Source: Bacteroidales bacterium
GTDB taxonomy: Bacteria > Bacteroidota > Bacteroidia > Bacteroidales > UBA3824
Assembly (NCBI GenBank): GCA_017645985.1
Contig: JAGCNK010000172.1
Location: forward strand, 1-35,136
Length of the DNA: 35,136 bases
Direction: 5' to 3'
Shown: one piece after another, positions 900-13,440 of the stretch
Position numbering within the stretch: the first letter of the stretch is position 1
How the letters are laid out: each line of letters begins with the position of its first letter
The notes under the pieces: model-generated
What the model was told of the DNA's origin: nothing
Seen by the model: only the letters and a program-made list of their open reading frames with translations
The model's database searches: none
Made by a program: the position numbers and the translations under genes

Positions 900-1541
900 A
901 TGGGACGCGCCATTGTCTTGTTTGATTTCGACGGCACTCTCGCCGATACTTTCGAGTCGGGAGCCGCCCTTATCAACGAATTTGCCGTTAAGTTTGGCTA
1001 CAAACCTTTGGATTTTGCCTCTCACCGAAATCTTTCGGCTCGTGAGCTGGTGAAGCTTTCGGGTGTGAGATGGTGGCAGATTCCGAAGCTGGTGAGGTTC
1101 TTCCGCCGCGAGTCGGTGAACCGTGCCGACAGGATAAAACCTTTCAATGGTATTGAGGATATGGTAAAACGAATCTTCAAGGTGTGCGATATGGGCATAC
1201 TTACCACCAACGCATCGCAGACCATCGGACGGTTTCTCGACAATCTACAGCTTGAAAAATATTTCTGCTATCTGCGCTCCAATGTGCCTCTCTTTGGCAA
1301 GAGCCGGGCTCTGCGGCGCACCGTGCGGATGCTAAAACAGCATTACACCTATATCTTGTATGTGGGCGACGAAATCCGCGACATTGAAGCGTGCCGCAAG
1401 GTGGGTCTGCCTATAGTTTCGGTTTCGTGGGGATTCAATTCGCGAGAGATACTTGCAGCGCACAACGATTCGGTGGCAGACTCTGCCGACGAACTTGCCC
1501 AAAAGGTTTTGGACCGTGTTATTGAAGGCCTAAGTAAGTAG
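900..1541 (+). CDS. HAD-IA family hydrolase (phosphoglycolate phosphatase-like)
   Basis: ATG at 900. HAD motif I is FDFDGTLADT, motif II is ILTTN, and motif III/IV is GKSR ... YVGDEIRDIEA. Length of 213 aa is typical. Confidence 0.8.
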   Translation: MGRAIVLFDFDGTLADTFESGAALINEFAVKFGYKPLDFASHRNLSARELVKLSGVRWWQIPKLVRFFRRESVNRADRIKPFNGIEDMVKRIFKVCDMGILTTNASQTIGRFLDNLQLEKYFCYLRSNVPLFGKSRALRRTVRMLKQHYTYILYVGDEIRDIEACRKVGLPIVSVSWGFNSREILAAHNDSVADSADELAQKVLDRVIEGLSK

Positions 1542-4500
1542 AAAACTCGTTCACGGCATTCCGCAGCATCGGTATCGTGTCGAAATATCCGTAAAAGTGC
1601 GGAGCGTAGTTCTGATATACCACCTTTGCCTCGTCGATTTGGTTCTGATAAACAAGCTGCACAAATTTCAGCGCGTAGGCGTACGACAGCAGCGACTTGT
1701 CGCCGTTGGTCGATTTTAGCATCACAATAGCGCGGTCGATACTCAGTGCCGAGGTGTTGAAATCTTTGTAAAAACGCATCAGAATGTCGGCTTTCTCTAA
1801 CAGCACAGAAGCCTCGGTGTGCGCAGAGCCTGTGGCGGCTGCGGTGTCCACTGCCCTTCGCAGATATCCGAGCGCAAGGTCTTTCTCGTCGCACGATATG
1901 TTGTATCTTGCCTGCGACACTATTGCCTGAATCTCCAAGTCGGTGTCTTTCTCTGTTTTGGCAAGGTCGACGGTGTTTGAAAGAAGCTTGCTGATAAAGT
2001 CGTACATCGTGAGGGTCTTGCCGTTGAAATCGATGGTGGCAGCCATCTTTCCGCAGTTTTCGGCAAACTGGGTGGCCATATTGTAATAGAGCTGTGCGGC
2101 GGCGTCCCAAAGGTCGCGGGCAAAAAGAAGGTCTAACGCTTGCTGGTATTTCTTCACCGCCTCGTCTAATTTCCCGAGCTTGATGTTAATCTGCGCCGTG
2201 GCACGCAGTGCAGTGCATTTGGTGTCGATATCTGACGAAATGTCAAACACGTGCATTATCTGGCTTGCCAGCGATGTGGCTTCGTCATAGCGTTTCACAA
2301 TGGCGTTTGACACTGCACGGCTTAGGAGCGTCTTGATGATTCCTGTGTGGTTGTCGTCTTTTTTGAAGAGCGAATATGCCTTGTGGTAATATTTGTTGGC
2401 GGTTTCGATGTCGCCGTTGATACCGAAAATGGCTGTGGCAGCCGACAGGGCGCAGTCGGCGAGCGACGAAATCTCAATATGAAATTCGTTTTCAAAAGTG
2501 TCGAACGCCTTGCGGTAATATTCTGCCGCTCTGAGGTTGTTGCCGAGACGTTCGTGCATAAGAGCCACGTTCTTAAGGTTGTTGAAAAGACCTTCGCTCT
2601 TAAACTCCTCCTTGTCGTATTCCTCGCACGCCTTGTTGTAGTATTCGAGTGCGCGGGTGTATATTCCAAAAGTGTCGTATGTGTAGCCTATGTTGTTGCA
2701 GATGTATGCAGTGCGTGTGTGCGCCTCGGTTTTGGAGCTGATGTCCAACGCTGTGGTGTAGTTAGCCACCGCCACAAGGTAATCCTTGTTTTCAAAAAAG
2801 TAGTCGGCAATGGCTGTGAAAGCCTGCACCAGTTTGTCGTTGATGTCGGTTTCTGACACTTCGTCGCCGTGCTCCTTCTTCATCGTTTGCAGAATATCCA
2901 CTGCCGAGGTGAGACATTCGTAGCCTTGGTCACGGTTTTGCGTGTGCATAAGTGCGTCGGCGGCGTGTATTAGCGCGTCGGCCTGACGTCCTGGACGGTC
3001 GGCTACTTGGTAATGCTGAGCCGAAAGGATGTAGTTCTCGGCAGATTTTTCGTAGTTGCCGTTTTCGTAAAAGAGGCCAGTTTCGGCGTATGCTGCAGCC
3101 AGCTGCTCGGTGTTGCCGGTCAGACGGTAGGTTTCAATCACCTGATGCTGGCAGATGAGCGCCTCGTCGGTGTCGCCGTTTTCGTTGTAAAGGTAGGCGA
3201 GAGCCGACAGCATTTCGGCAAACATGTCTAGGTCGTTGTCGCTGCGGTATAGCTCTATAGCTCTTTTGTAGTATTCTGAGGCACGGGGTGCGTCGGGCAT
3301 TTCGGCGTACATACAGGCGAGCGTGCCTGTGGCGAGTGCCTCTGAATGCAGGTCGCCAAGATTGCGGCTCAGCTCAATGGCCTCGTCGAGAGCTTTTTGC
3401 GCCTCTTTGTATTCGCAGAGCATGCGCATTGTGTCGCCGGCAAACGACAGCGAACGTATGTATTCTTTGGTGTCGCCGATGTTTTTGTATATTTTGGCGG
3501 CGAGCAGGTATGTCACTTTTGCCTTGTTGAAACGGTCGCTGCGGTAGTACAGTGTGGCGAGCGATGTCAGGTTGTACGCCTCCTGCGCCTTGTATTTCAC
3601 CTTGTGGTACAGCTCAATGGCATTGTCGTAATATGTTTCGGCGCGGGCGGTCTTTTTCTGCTCCTCGTACACGCTTGCCAGGTTTGAATAGTTGAGTGCT
3701 GCTGCGGCGTTGTCGTTGAGCTTGTTGTTTATCTTGAGAGCCTCCAGATAGTACTGCGAGGCGCGTTCGTAATCCTGCTTTGAGTAGAAAATGTTTCCGA
3801 TATTGTTGTATACGGCAGCTCGTCCGGCTTCGTCGTTGCTCTGCTGCGACAGCTCGAGCGACTTGTTGAAGTACTGCATTGCCCCCTGGATATTGTCGGA
3901 ACCGTAATGCAGGTTGCCGATGGCGTTGTAGTCGGCTATCATACCGGCAATGTCGTTGTTGGCATGGTCTTCTTTGAGAGCCAGCTTGTAGTATCGCAGA
4001 GCCGTGTCGGTTTCGGATTTTTGCGAATATAGCGCACCTAAATTGCTGTATGTTACTGCAATGCCGTACTTGTTGGGTGCGTTTGAGTCGTTTTCTAATG
4101 CGGCGTTGAAGTATTTTTCGGCACCGTTTTCGTCGCCGCTGTTGAGCAGTGCAAGTCCTATGTTGTTGTAACTTATTGATATCTTGGCTGTATTGCCGAG
4201 CATACGGTCAATTTCCAATGCTTTGTGAAAGTAGGTCAACGCCTCGGTATATTTGCTCTGGGCGTTTTTCGACAGGCCCATATTGTTGTAGCAGTTGGCA
4301 AGGTTGATGCGGTCGCCGGTGTGGAAACAAAGCCTGAGTGCTTCGGTGTAGTATCTTTTGGCTTCGGCAAAACGGCTGTCGTTGTCGTAAGATAGTCCGA
4401 GATTGATATACGCCTTGGCGAGAATGTGCGGCTTGACGGCCTTGGTGCAATAGTCGATCACCTCGTTGAGCAGCTGATACGCGCCCGCATTGTCTTTGTC

Positions 4501-13367: not shown

Positions 13368-13409
13368 TTTGTCGTTTTTAATTACTCTGAGTTTAATAAT
13401 TTGCCAATA

Positions 13410-13440
13410 CAAAGATAACTAATATTTGTTTAAAAACAAA
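13410..13440 (-). promoter_or_regulatory. Candidate Bacteroides-type sigma-A promoter for the five-gene sensory operon
   Basis: On the minus strand, TTTG (13440-13437) is followed by 19 nt and then TATCTTTG (13417-13410), an exact TAnnTTTG match. It sits about 43 nt upstream of the ATG at 13367. Confidence 0.45.

What the first reader, a model, noticed from the sequence alone, without database searches (positions are those of the whole stretch)
1519..13440. Compact five-gene sensory operon that I cannot match to a described pathway
Five minus-strand genes are packed almost without spacing. There is a 15-nt gap at 11448-11462, an ATGA stop/start overlap at 8757-8760, a 31-nt gap at 8214-8244, and either a TTGA overlap at 5925-5928 or an 82-nt overlap. 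One full Bacteroides-type promoter match (13410-13440) lies upstream, and I saw no obvious internal terminator. The order is helical-bundle-HAMP-GAF receptor, dCache-HAMP-GAF-PAS receptor, YfiR/DUF4154-like periplasmic protein, hybrid HK-REC, then AAA_16 STAND ATPase-TPR. The only catalytic modules are one kinase/receiver and one P-loop NTPase. There is no Hpt, no DNA-binding regulator, and no GGDEF/EAL or cyclase. This suggests a multi-input receptor complex converging on one hybrid kinase, with a STAND/TPR switch or scaffold as the downstream partner.
Basis: partly seen in the sequence, partly recalled or inferred. Interest (0 to 1): 0.78.

Follow-up and report, generated by a model that had tools for sequence, protein, structure and literature searches.

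The report
Four-gene sensor operon plus add-on ATPase

Summary
The five minus-strand genes, their spacings and overlaps, and the single Bacteroides-type promoter match are all present as described. Most domain calls hold.

Comparative data change the interpretation. G1-G2-G3-G4 is a tightly packed operon conserved in about 21 species-level genomes of uncultured herbivore-gut Bacteroidales, down to about 50% identity. G5 (STAND ATPase-TPR) follows G4 only in the window's closest relatives (6 species). A positional ortholog of G5 in another close relative is a stand-alone gene with its own promoter.

G3 plus G4 match an already described modular unit. It pairs a YfiR-like periplasmic protein with a CHASE8-HAMP membrane partner, here with a hybrid kinase output instead of a diguanylate cyclase. 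Malone et al. 2012 listed such variants in silico.

G1 and G2 are paralogous membrane receptors (helical or dCache ectodomain, HAMP-like, GAF, with or without PAS, long C-terminal helix). Neither has an output domain. Their link to the kinase rests only on operon conservation, because similar tandem pairs occur elsewhere without a kinase.

Verdict: a real, undescribed variant of a known kind of signalling module. The STAND "downstream partner" idea is weakly supported. Interest is moderate.

The parts
13410..13440 (-). Bacteroides-type promoter match (TTTG-N19-TATCTTTG), about 40 nt upstream of the G1 ATG.
   Evidence: It is one of 4 full matches in the window (0.74 expected), and all four lie in front of genes. 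It is a consensus match only; the transcription start is not mapped.
11463..13367 (-). G1, a 634-aa membrane receptor with no output domain. Order: TM1, about 250-aa helical-looking ectodomain, TM2, HAMP-like segment, GAF (window 11664-12077), C-terminal coiled coil.
   Evidence: Pfam GAF_2 7.4e-14. The start and the whole length are conserved in 16 orthologs. It is paralogous to G2 from TM2 through GAF (26% identity, E=1e-36). The HAMP-like segment aligns to that of G2 (hhalign probability 80%). The ectodomain gives only weak TarH (E=0.016) and JetC-like (PADLOC, E=2.3e-5) hits.
8757..11447 (-). G2, an 896-aa membrane receptor with no output domain. Order: TM1, dCache (10473-11330), TM2, HAMP-like segment, GAF (9600-10019), 80-aa helix, PAS (9117-9413), 100-aa helix.
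   Evidence: Pfam GAF_2 4.3e-14. The profile hits the dCache sensor 3lib at E=2e-5. The AF2 model has pLDDT 67. Foldseek matches dCache ligand-binding domains at target-normalised TM-score 0.72-0.79. The HAMP-like segment matches the G4 HAMP (hhalign probability 89%). PAS_9 is weak, E=0.005. Invariant residues N11, R14, W15 and K16 support the 896-aa start.
8245..8760 (-). G3, a 171-aa secreted YfiR-like (DUF4154) periplasmic protein with a Sec signal peptide (MKKLL...ATA/QG).
   Evidence: Pfam DUF4154 1.2e-15, above the cut-off. The ortholog profile aligns to YfiR structures 4yn7/4yn9 over the full length at E=0.04. NCBIfam YfiR_like_TOL0243 matches 15/15 orthologs and sequest_YfiR 14/15, all below the equivalog cut-offs.
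5925..8213 (-). G4, a 762-aa hybrid histidine kinase. Order: TM1, about 125-aa periplasmic CHASE8-type domain (7734-8111), TM2, HAMP (7521-7673), PAS, HisKA, HATPase_c, REC (5952-6284).
   Evidence: Pfam HAMP, PAS_9, HisKA, HATPase_c and Response_reg all score above their cut-offs. CHASE8 is detected in 10 of 15 aligned ortholog N-termini (best 1.2e-9) but not in the window copy itself. The H-box SHEIRTP, the N, G1 and G2 boxes and the receiver Asp (LILMDIKMP) are read directly in the translation.
1519..5928 (-). G5, a 1469-aa STAND-type NTPase. The NBD, helical and winged-helix part (about 5089-5928) carries Walker A GKPGCGKS and Walker B IIIADD. About 1150 aa of TPR repeats follow. There is no effector domain. 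Its TTG start overlaps the G4 stop. It is a clade-specific addition.
   Evidence: Pfam AAA_16 1.9e-12 and TPR_12 7.9e-74. The AF2 model of residues 1-420 has pLDDT 80. Foldseek matches the STAND-TPR protein 6mfv, Apaf-1, CED-4 and ORC/Cdc6. G5 is present only in L011-L015 and L028. The junction is invariant. PADLOC gives no defence-system hit.

Best explanation
**What is shown.** The locus is a conserved four-gene signal-transduction operon (G1-G2-G3-G4) of an uncultured herbivore-gut Bacteroidales lineage. A fifth, translationally coupled gene (G5) was attached to it recently in one sub-clade.

**Core, inferred by homology.** The core is a Yfi-type sensing module.
- The secreted YfiR-like protein G3 binds the small CHASE8-type periplasmic domain of the hybrid kinase G4.
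- Binding holds G4 in one signalling state. Release of G3, for example on envelope or redox stress as for YfiR, switches G4 through TM2 and HAMP to the PAS-DHp-CA core.
- G4 autophosphorylates on the H-box His and passes the phosphoryl group to its own receiver Asp.
- No Hpt or response regulator is encoded nearby. Further transfer goes to an unlinked Hpt/regulator, or the receiver acts as the endpoint or a sink.

**G1 and G2, inferred only from strict operon conservation.** They are paralogous membrane receptors with different ectodomains (helical versus dCache), cytoplasmic HAMP-like and GAF modules (plus PAS in G2), and long C-terminal helices. Neither has an enzymatic or DNA-binding output. 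They most likely act as co-sensors that modulate G4 by direct protein-protein contact. The operon would then integrate two extracytoplasmic ligands, cytoplasmic GAF/PAS cues and the G3 signal on one kinase.

**G5, speculative.** It is an effector-less NBD-HD-WHD-TPR STAND protein from a fast-evolving family that is normally encoded alone. In the window's sub-clade it is co-expressed with G4 and may use the pathway as input or scaffold. It is not an essential part of the system.
For: **Anatomy.**

**Four-gene conservation.** The genes keep 0-60-nt spacers and the same chromosomal context across about 21 species-level genomes, at 47-95% G4 identity.

**G3 is YfiR-like.**

**The G4 periplasmic domain is CHASE8.** It is detected in 10 of 15 orthologs. 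The periplasmic domain of YfiN is classified as CHASE8 (PMC8085984).

**Published precedent.** The YfiR-YfiN core has been described with kinase and hybrid-kinase outputs (PMC3375315).

**Catalytic residues.** Those of G4 and the Walker motifs of G5 are intact in the translation.

**G1 and G2.** They are paralogs. No hidden output domain appears in the G2 model. Distant GAF relatives are fused to HisKA-HATPase-REC (P0053-P0055). In Chitinophaga a GAF-PAS relative is followed by a PAS-HK-REC gene (L039/L040).

**G5 is clade-specific.** It has stand-alone relatives: a positional ortholog (L066) and more distant homologs. The TTGA overlap is conserved.
Against: - No experiment or transcript data exist for any of these genes.
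- CHASE8 is below threshold in the window's own G4.
- G3 is below the NCBIfam equivalog cut-offs for YfiR, and its PDB profile match is weak (E=0.04).
- No YfiB-like lipoprotein is in the operon.
- G1/G2-like tandem pairs occur without any kinase or DUF4154 neighbour (L010, L069). Single relatives sit in unrelated contexts or beside a che cluster (L036, L037, L070). G1 and G2 may therefore have an output of their own.
- In one MAG (L014) G3 and most of G4 are deleted in frame while G1, G2 and G5 persist. If this is not an assembly artefact, those three genes can be kept without the kinase.
Confidence: 0.55

Rival explanations
1. All five proteins form one obligate pathway. G1, G2 and G3 feed the hybrid kinase, and the phosphorylated receiver of the kinase switches the STAND/TPR protein, which is the dedicated downstream output.
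For: - The G4 stop and G5 start overlap by 4 nt, and the junction is invariant in seven genomes.
- No internal full promoter match or terminator stands out.
- G5 has intact Walker motifs and a STAND fold.
- The operon encodes no other candidate output.
Against: - G5 is missing from every relative with G2 identity of 67% or below, although G1-G4 and the upstream context are conserved. The DNA after G4 differs between sub-clades.
- The positional ortholog L066 has its own promoter and no G4 upstream.
- G5-like genes stand alone elsewhere.
- G5 evolves much faster than G4 in the same genome pairs (62-81% versus 78-95% identity).
- L014 keeps G5 but has lost the kinase core.
Confidence: 0.12
2. 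There are two independent modules in one transcript. G1+G2 form a self-contained receptor pair whose unknown output runs through their long C-terminal coiled coils, for example recruiting or sequestering a partner. G3+G4 form a separate Yfi-type kinase module. Co-transcription would reflect a shared physiological role, not physical signalling between them.
For: - Tandem pairs of output-less HAMP-GAF-PAS receptors recur without a kinase or DUF4154 gene. These are L010 and L069, whose second gene has the G1-type ectodomain over its full length.
- A GAF-PAS relative lies next to a che gene cluster in L070.
- The C-terminal helix of G2 carries a block of invariant residues (K839-V869), which suggests a dedicated docking surface.
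- That helix shows no similarity to the DHp or linker helices of G4.
Against: - In every genome of the clade the four genes are contiguous, with spacers of 0-60 nt and no rearrangement.
- Other bacteria fuse dCache/GAF modules directly to kinase cores (P0053-P0055).
- In Chitinophaga a relative is followed by a PAS-HK-REC gene.
Confidence: 0.25
3. G5 is an anti-phage or other conflict-type STAND (Avs-like) or a selfish insertion. It landed in a variable spot behind the operon and has nothing to do with signalling.
For: - Its distribution is patchy and clade-limited, and it diverges quickly.
- It sits in a region whose content differs between sub-clades.
- It has STAND architecture.
Against: - It has no N-terminal or C-terminal effector domain; only 6 residues precede the FVG motif of AAA_16.
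- It matches no PADLOC defence family beyond generic TPR.
- No mobile-element genes flank it, and GC content is unremarkable.
- The start/stop overlap is conserved.
- The positional ortholog shares the HAD/WD40 neighbourhood, which points to vertical descent.
Confidence: 0.05

Closest known systems
YfiBNR (TpbB/DgcN) system of Pseudomonas aeruginosa and E. coli
   Same: A small secreted DUF4154/YfiR-fold protein is encoded next to an inner-membrane partner. The short periplasmic domain of that partner is CHASE8 and is followed by HAMP. The expected logic is the same: the periplasmic protein holds the receptor in one state.
   Different: The output is PAS-HisKA-HATPase-REC, not GGDEF. No YfiB (OmpA/Pal lipoprotein) is in the operon. 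The gene order is regulator before receptor. The host phylum is Bacteroidota. G3 scores below the NCBIfam equivalog cut-offs. Two extra receptors are co-encoded.
Divergent Yfi-like modules with histidine-kinase or hybrid-kinase outputs (in silico survey, Malone et al. 2012, PMC3375315; e.g. Thauera sp. MZ1T)
   Same: A YfiR homolog is paired with a YfiN-like periplasmic/HAMP core joined to a (hybrid) sensor kinase, and YfiB is lacking. This is the closest described kind for G3+G4.
   Different: Those examples were only catalogued, mainly in Proteobacteria, and none has been characterised. None was reported with two upstream output-less HAMP-GAF receptors or with a STAND-TPR gene.
TPR-containing STAND NTPases (MalT/AfsR clade; Pyrococcus STAND-TPR structure 6mfv; PknK-type kinase-AAA_16-TPR proteins)
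   Same: G5 has the AAA_16 NBD with Walker A and B, helical and winged-helix domains, and a C-terminal TPR sensor array.
   Different: G5 has no DNA-binding, kinase, cyclase or other effector domain. Its NTPase module has only 3 hits below E=1e-30 among 1.84 billion cluster representatives. It belongs to a little-known set of effector-less 1400-1600-aa AAA_16-TPR proteins.
dCache/4HB-HAMP chemoreceptors (MCPs) and accessory co-sensors of kinases (e.g. LuxP-LuxQ, RetS/LadS-GacS; named from general knowledge)
   Same: The G2 ectodomain is a dCache like those of MCPs and sensor kinases. The topology is TM-ectodomain-TM-HAMP. The idea that separate sensors modulate one kinase has precedents.
   Different: G1 and G2 have no MCP signalling domain and no kinase core. 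Their cytoplasmic part is GAF, with or without PAS, plus coiled coil. No characterised homolog was found.

Membership tests
Yfi-type (YfiR-YfiN core) signalling module | A secreted periplasmic protein of the DUF4154/YfiR family | tested here: met
   Pfam DUF4154 1.2e-15 (58 bits against a cut-off of 24.9). A signal peptide is read in the sequence. The ortholog profile aligns to YfiR structures over the full length at E=0.04.
Yfi-type (YfiR-YfiN core) signalling module | An adjacent inner-membrane partner with a CHASE8 periplasmic domain followed by HAMP | tested here: met
   HAMP scores 1.1e-6, above the cut-off, in the window copy. CHASE8 is found in 10 of 15 aligned orthologs (best 1.2e-9). 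The window's own copy is below detection, so this rests on orthology and the alignment.
Yfi-type (YfiR-YfiN core) signalling module | A GGDEF diguanylate-cyclase output (canonical YfiN) | tested here: not met
   G4 carries PAS-HisKA-HATPase_c-REC and has no GGDEF or EAL domain. It therefore belongs only to the wider modular class described in PMC3375315, not to YfiN proper.
Yfi-type (YfiR-YfiN core) signalling module | [quoted passage not shown] | tested here: not met
   None of the five genes has an OmpA domain. A PD40-OmpA gene lies upstream on the other strand (14820-16961). It is part of a generally syntenic neighbourhood and was not tested further.
Yfi-type (YfiR-YfiN core) signalling module | Physical binding of the YfiR-like protein to the periplasmic domain, repressing the receptor | not testable with these tools
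   No multimer prediction or experiment was available.
NCBIfam equivalogs sequest_YfiR / YfiR_like_TOL0243 | A score above the curated whole-protein cut-off | tested here: not met
   G3 scores 18.9 bits against 85 and 43.8 bits against 125. All 15 orthologs match, but below the cut-offs.
Hybrid histidine kinase | A HisKA domain with the H-box His, an HATPase_c domain with N, G1 and G2 boxes, and a fused receiver with the phospho-acceptor Asp | tested here: met
   Pfam HisKA 3.2e-21, HATPase_c 2.3e-28 and Response_reg 2.4e-24. The motifs are read in the translation.
Complete phosphorelay (hybrid HK, Hpt, response regulator) | An Hpt domain and a cognate output regulator encoded in the locus | tested here: not met
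   The five proteins and 15 flanking window ORFs have no Hpt, no stand-alone REC and no DNA-binding domain. The rest of the genome was not available.
STAND NTPase | A P-loop NBD with Walker A and B, followed by helical and winged-helix domains and a C-terminal repeat sensor | tested here: met
   AAA_16 1.9e-12 and TPR_12 7.9e-74. The AF2 model has pLDDT 80, with NBD, helical domain, beta-hairpin winged helix and TPR helices in order. Foldseek matches 6mfv (a STAND-TPR protein), Apaf-1 and CED-4.
Avs-type or other anti-phage STAND | A fused effector domain (nuclease, protease, TIR and so on) and a match to a defence-system model | tested here: not met
   There is no effector domain. PADLOC returns only a generic TPR model and sub-significant P-loop hits.
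Methyl-accepting chemotaxis protein | An MCPsignal cytoplasmic hairpin domain | tested here: not met
   MCPsignal is absent from G1 and G2. The G2 model ends in single long helices. Two true MCPs lie elsewhere in the window.
HAMP-containing receptor (G1, G2) | A HAMP domain directly after TM2 | tested here: inconclusive
   Pfam HAMP is not reported for either window protein at E<=0.01. By hhalign, the post-TM2 segment of G2 matches the G4 HAMP at 89% probability, and G1 matches G2 at 80%. Two-helix segments appear in the AF2 model. Precomputed Pfam HAMP hits on distant relatives are weak.

The most novel reading that the evidence does not exclude
G1 and G2 represent an uncharacterised class of Bacteroidota membrane receptors: ectodomain, HAMP-like segment, GAF, with or without PAS, then a long conserved C-terminal helix, and no output domain. 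They work as hetero-pairs and signal in trans through their coiled-coil tails. In this lineage they would act on a YfiR-gated CHASE8 hybrid kinase, making a split, multi-input sensor kinase. Elsewhere they would act on other partners. In one sub-clade an effector-less STAND-TPR protein has been wired to the receiver of the kinase as a new kind of two-component output.
Probability: 0.2. Interest if true: 0.65.

Novelty: new variant of a known kind. Interest (0 to 1): 0.4.

Why it matters
Yfi-type modules have been studied experimentally only as regulators of c-di-GMP synthesis in Proteobacteria. This would be a clear, conserved case in gut Bacteroidales where the same periplasmic gate controls a phosphorelay. 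It is also coupled to two receptors that have no recognisable output.

Output-less HAMP-GAF(-PAS) receptors, often in tandem pairs, appear to be a recurrent and unstudied feature of Bacteroidota. Working out how they signal would fill a gap in bacterial signal-transduction catalogues.

The locus also shows a STAND-TPR gene being captured into a two-component operon, with a translationally coupled start, within a narrow clade. That is a useful natural experiment on how signalling pathways gain new components.

The organisms are uncultured rumen and hindgut bacteria, so the practical impact is limited for now.

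Tried and rejected
- **Degenerate DHp or pseudo-phosphoacceptor helix in G2.** I tested whether the invariant C-terminal helix of G2 (KAS.S..FFKRELEKRI) is one. hhalign of the G2 and G1 C-termini against the G4 DHp and linker gave probabilities of 0.1% or less. 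Rejected.
- **G5 as a defence STAND.** PADLOC gave only a generic TPR model, and there is no effector domain. Rejected as the main reading.
- **Direct Pfam detection of CHASE8 in the window's G4.** No hit even at E<=1. It was recovered only through orthologs.
- **PDB sequence searches.** G1 gave nothing. G3 as a single sequence gave nothing meaningful.
- **A wider survey of DUF4154 loci.** This survey could not be done.
- **G2 dCache versus the neighbouring MCP dCache.** No detectable similarity, so this is not a recent local duplication.
- **The 142-aa ORF after G4 in L007/L019.** Checked as a possible Hpt. It shows no Hpt-like features and is restricted to those two loci.
- **RNA elements.** The Rfam and tRNA scans of the window were empty.
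- **Literature searches.** Searches for DUF4154 with histidine kinase, and for 'YfiR-like', returned nothing.
- **Word-index homolog search with the G5 N-terminus.** It found only one fragment. The exhaustive search was needed.

Full report
**1. Observation.**

ORF listing finds five large minus-strand ORFs at 11463-13412, 8757-11447, 8245-8760, 5925-8213 and 1519-6006. The reported junctions follow from these coordinates:
- a 15-nt gap between G1 and G2;
- an ATGA stop/start overlap between G2 and G3, read;
- a 31-nt gap between G3 and G4;
- a TTG start at 5928 that overlaps the G4 TGA stop.

Identical contigs exist in several ENA and Logan metagenome assemblies. Gene callers there chose a 634-aa G1 and a 1469-aa G5.

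The G1 N-terminus MNTPEK is conserved in 16 orthologs. The true G1 start is therefore the ATG at 13367. The TTG at 13412 lies inside the promoter -7 box.

The pattern TTTG-N17-21-TAnnTTTG occurs four times in the 35-kb window, against 0.74 expected. All four matches lie in intergenic DNA directly upstream of genes. One is at 13410-13440(-), and none is inside the operon. Terminator-like hairpins occur at chance frequency.

**2. Domain content.**

- **G1 and G2.** Pfam gives GAF for both, plus weak dCache and PAS for G2.
- **G3.** DUF4154 (YfiR/HmsC-like).
- **G4.** HAMP-PAS-HisKA-HATPase_c-REC.
- **G5.** AAA_16 plus a long TPR array.
- **Absent.** No Hpt, DNA-binding, GGDEF/EAL or cyclase domain is present.

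A profile of G2 orthologs hits the double-PDC sensor 3lib. An AF2 model of G2 (pLDDT 67) shows this order: TM, dCache, TM, HAMP-like two-helix unit, helix, GAF, 80-residue helix, PAS, 100-residue helix. There is no further domain. Foldseek matches its ectodomain to dCache ligand-binding domains at target-normalised TM-score 0.72-0.79.

G1 and G2 are paralogs from TM2 through GAF (26% identity over 303 residues, E=1e-36).

HAMP in G1 and G2 is not called by Pfam. The post-TM2 segment of G2 aligns to the Pfam-confirmed HAMP of G4 (hhalign probability 89%), and G1 aligns to G2 at 80%.

The helical ectodomain of G1 has only weak support (TarH E=0.016).

**3. Organism and conservation.**

Homologs of G2 and G1 come almost only from uncultured Bacteroidales MAGs of rumen, omasum, abomasum and horse or deer gut.

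I ran tblastn of the five proteins and the flanking genes against 40 fetched loci, with ORF coordinates. G1-G2-G3-G4 are contiguous, co-oriented and separated by 0-60 nt in every genome where the contig is long enough. That is 19 GTDB species representatives plus two metagenome contigs. G2 identity falls to 53% and G4 identity to 47%. The genes always sit divergently from a lysA-like decarboxylase, a PD40-OmpA gene and priA.

G5 behaves differently.
- **Restricted distribution.** It follows G4 only in the six closest species (L011-L015, L028; G2 identity at least 83%).
- **Absent further out.** It is missing from L016 (67%) and from all relatives at 53-57%. There, the DNA downstream of G4 holds different genes in different sub-clades.
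- **Faster evolution.** Within the G5-bearing genomes, G5 identity is 62-81% against 78-95% for G4.

An exhaustive HMMER search with the G5 N-terminal 420 residues found only 3 proteins below E=1e-30 among 1.84 billion representatives. A broad, weak AAA_16 family lay beyond them. The nearest relatives are similar effector-less 1400-1600-aa AAA_16-TPR proteins.
- **P0058.** It is encoded alone on another contig of the very MAG that holds the G5-less locus L016.
- **P0059 (L066).** It is a positional ortholog of G5, beside the same HAD (63% identity) and WD40 (78% identity) genes. It is only 30-43% identical to G5. An AT-rich intergenic region precedes it, with a perfect TTTG-N19-TAATTTTG promoter match, and there is no G4.

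G5 was therefore a stand-alone gene beside HAD/WD40. It became abutted to the operon in the window's sub-clade. There, the AAGAGTTGA stop/start overlap is invariant, which argues for co-expression in that sub-clade.

**4. What G3+G4 are.**

Ten of 15 aligned G4 ortholog N-termini hit Pfam CHASE8 (best 1.2e-9). The window copy is a divergent member of the same alignment. CHASE8 is the current classification of the periplasmic domain of YfiN (PMC8085984).

The G3 family profile aligns over its full length to YfiR crystal structures (E=0.04). The best-conserved G3 residues (G130, M132, F133, Y144, S154) fall in the C-terminal stretch that aligns with highest confidence to YfiR. All 15 orthologs match the NCBIfam YfiR-like models, below the equivalog cut-offs.

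Malone et al. 2012 surveyed Yfi homologs and reported several relevant points (PMC3375315):
- distant systems usually lack YfiB;
- they replace GGDEF with histidine kinases, Hpt domains or hybrid kinases, for example in Thauera MZ1T;
- the YfiR-YfiN[PAS/HAMP] core is a widespread modular unit.

G3+G4 are thus a Bacteroidales member of this catalogued but uncharacterised variant class. They are not members of YfiN/YfiR proper, because there is no GGDEF and no YfiB, and the equivalog scores are not reached.

**5. What G1+G2 are.**

No characterised homolog was found. More distant relatives in other Bacteroidota are also output-less. Their contexts vary:
- tandem pairs without a kinase: L010, and L069, whose second gene matches G1 over its full length including the ectodomain;
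- single genes in unrelated contexts: L036 and L037;
- a gene followed by a PAS-HK-REC gene in Chitinophaga: L039/L040;
- a gene directly after a cheA-W-R-Y-D-B cluster in a Salinivirga-like genome: L070.

A few remote homologs fuse GAF, with or without dCache, to HisKA-HATPase-REC (P0053-P0055).

The link between G1/G2 and G4 is therefore supported only by strict operon conservation in this lineage and by weak Rosetta-stone evidence. The alternative, that G1/G2 form a separate receptor pair with their own unknown output, remains open. I tested whether the invariant C-terminal helix of G2 is a degenerate DHp, and hhalign rejected it.

**6. G5 fold.**

The AF2 model of residues 1-420 (pLDDT 80) shows a P-loop NBD, a helical domain, a beta-hairpin winged helix and the start of the TPR helices. 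Foldseek returns ORC/Cdc6, the Pyrococcus STAND-TPR protein 6mfv, Apaf-1 and CED-4.

Walker A (GKPGCGKS) and Walker B (IIIADD) are intact. Only six residues precede the FVG motif, so there is no N-terminal effector. PADLOC finds no defence-system family.

**7. Mechanism proposed.**

- **Shown.** The gene order, its conservation, the domain identities and the intact catalytic motifs.
- **Inferred by homology.** G3 gates G4 through the CHASE8 domain, as YfiR gates YfiN. G4 autophosphorylates and transfers the phosphoryl group to its own receiver.
- **Inferred from the operon only.** G1 and G2 act as co-sensors on G4.
- **Speculative.** In the window's sub-clade, G5 uses the phosphorylated receiver as input or serves as a scaffold.
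- **Unknown.** The downstream Hpt or regulator. None is present in the window.

**8. Novelty and score.**

The pieces are known kinds: a Yfi-like gate, a hybrid kinase, dCache/GAF/PAS sensors and a STAND-TPR protein. The kinase-output Yfi variant is already in the literature in silico.

Three things are new:
- the conserved four-gene arrangement with two output-less receptors;
- its restriction to an uncultured gut Bacteroidales lineage;
- the recent capture of a STAND-TPR gene.

This is a new variant of a known kind. It is of moderate interest to signal-transduction specialists and not very surprising.

Noticed in passing
window 22026-26107 (+): Two tandem dCache-(HAMP)-MCPsignal chemoreceptor genes lie in a Bacteroidales genome. 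To my knowledge chemotaxis-type receptors are uncommon in this order. The G2 dCache shows no detectable similarity to theirs.
   Followed up: partly
window 1-897 (+); L031 16629-20060: The left edge of the window encodes the WD40 C-terminus of a protein longer than 880 aa. An apparent ortholog in L031 (same blastp cluster as similar ORFs in L016, L022 and L027; not compared directly with the window) is 1143 aa and begins with a P-loop motif (EPRIGKTS). It may be a second, WD40-type STAND-like NTPase, and in several of these loci it lies a few kb downstream of the operon.
   Followed up: no
L014 13744-14430 (MAG027, JAEDDH010000004.1): An in-frame deletion of about 2.1 kb fuses the first ~41 residues of G3 (signal peptide) to the G2-box and receiver of G4. 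G1, G2 and G5 stay intact. This is either a real loss of the kinase core or an assembly artefact.
   Followed up: partly
L066 1-6322: The positional ortholog of G5, beside HAD (63% identity) and WD40 (78% identity), is only 30% identical in the NTPase part and 43% in the TPR part. It has its own TTTG-N19-TAATTTTG promoter match. This STAND-TPR gene evolves much faster than its neighbours.
   Followed up: partly
L070 1-10274 (Salinivirga-like genome): An output-less GAF-PAS-PAS relative of G1/G2 (P0258) lies directly downstream of a cheA-cheW-cheR-cheY-cheD-cheB cluster. This hints that some members of this receptor family feed chemosensory pathways.
   Followed up: no
L010 10001-16208; L069 3847-9229: Tandem pairs of output-less HAMP-GAF-PAS receptors occur without any kinase or DUF4154 gene nearby. 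The second gene of L069 has the G1-type ectodomain (29% identity over the full length) plus a PAS domain.
   Followed up: partly
window 14820-16961 (+): A 713-aa PD40 (TolB-like beta-propeller) plus OmpA-domain protein is conserved upstream of the operon on the other strand in all relatives. It could be a YfiB-like outer-membrane partner. It sits in a generally syntenic block, so no specific link is shown.
   Followed up: no
window 13452-13484 (+), 14762-14792 (+), 29590-29622 (+): The other three full Bacteroides-type promoter matches in the window each lie just upstream of a gene: the lysA-like decarboxylase, the PD40-OmpA gene and an FAA-hydrolase gene. The consensus therefore appears informative in this genome.
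   Followed up: no
window 33935-35071 (-) and 26122-29403 (-): The window also holds a 378-aa SpoIIE/PP2C phosphatase and a 1093-aa MFS transporter fused to a HEAT-repeat region. Both are further signalling or transport oddities in the same window.
   Followed up: no
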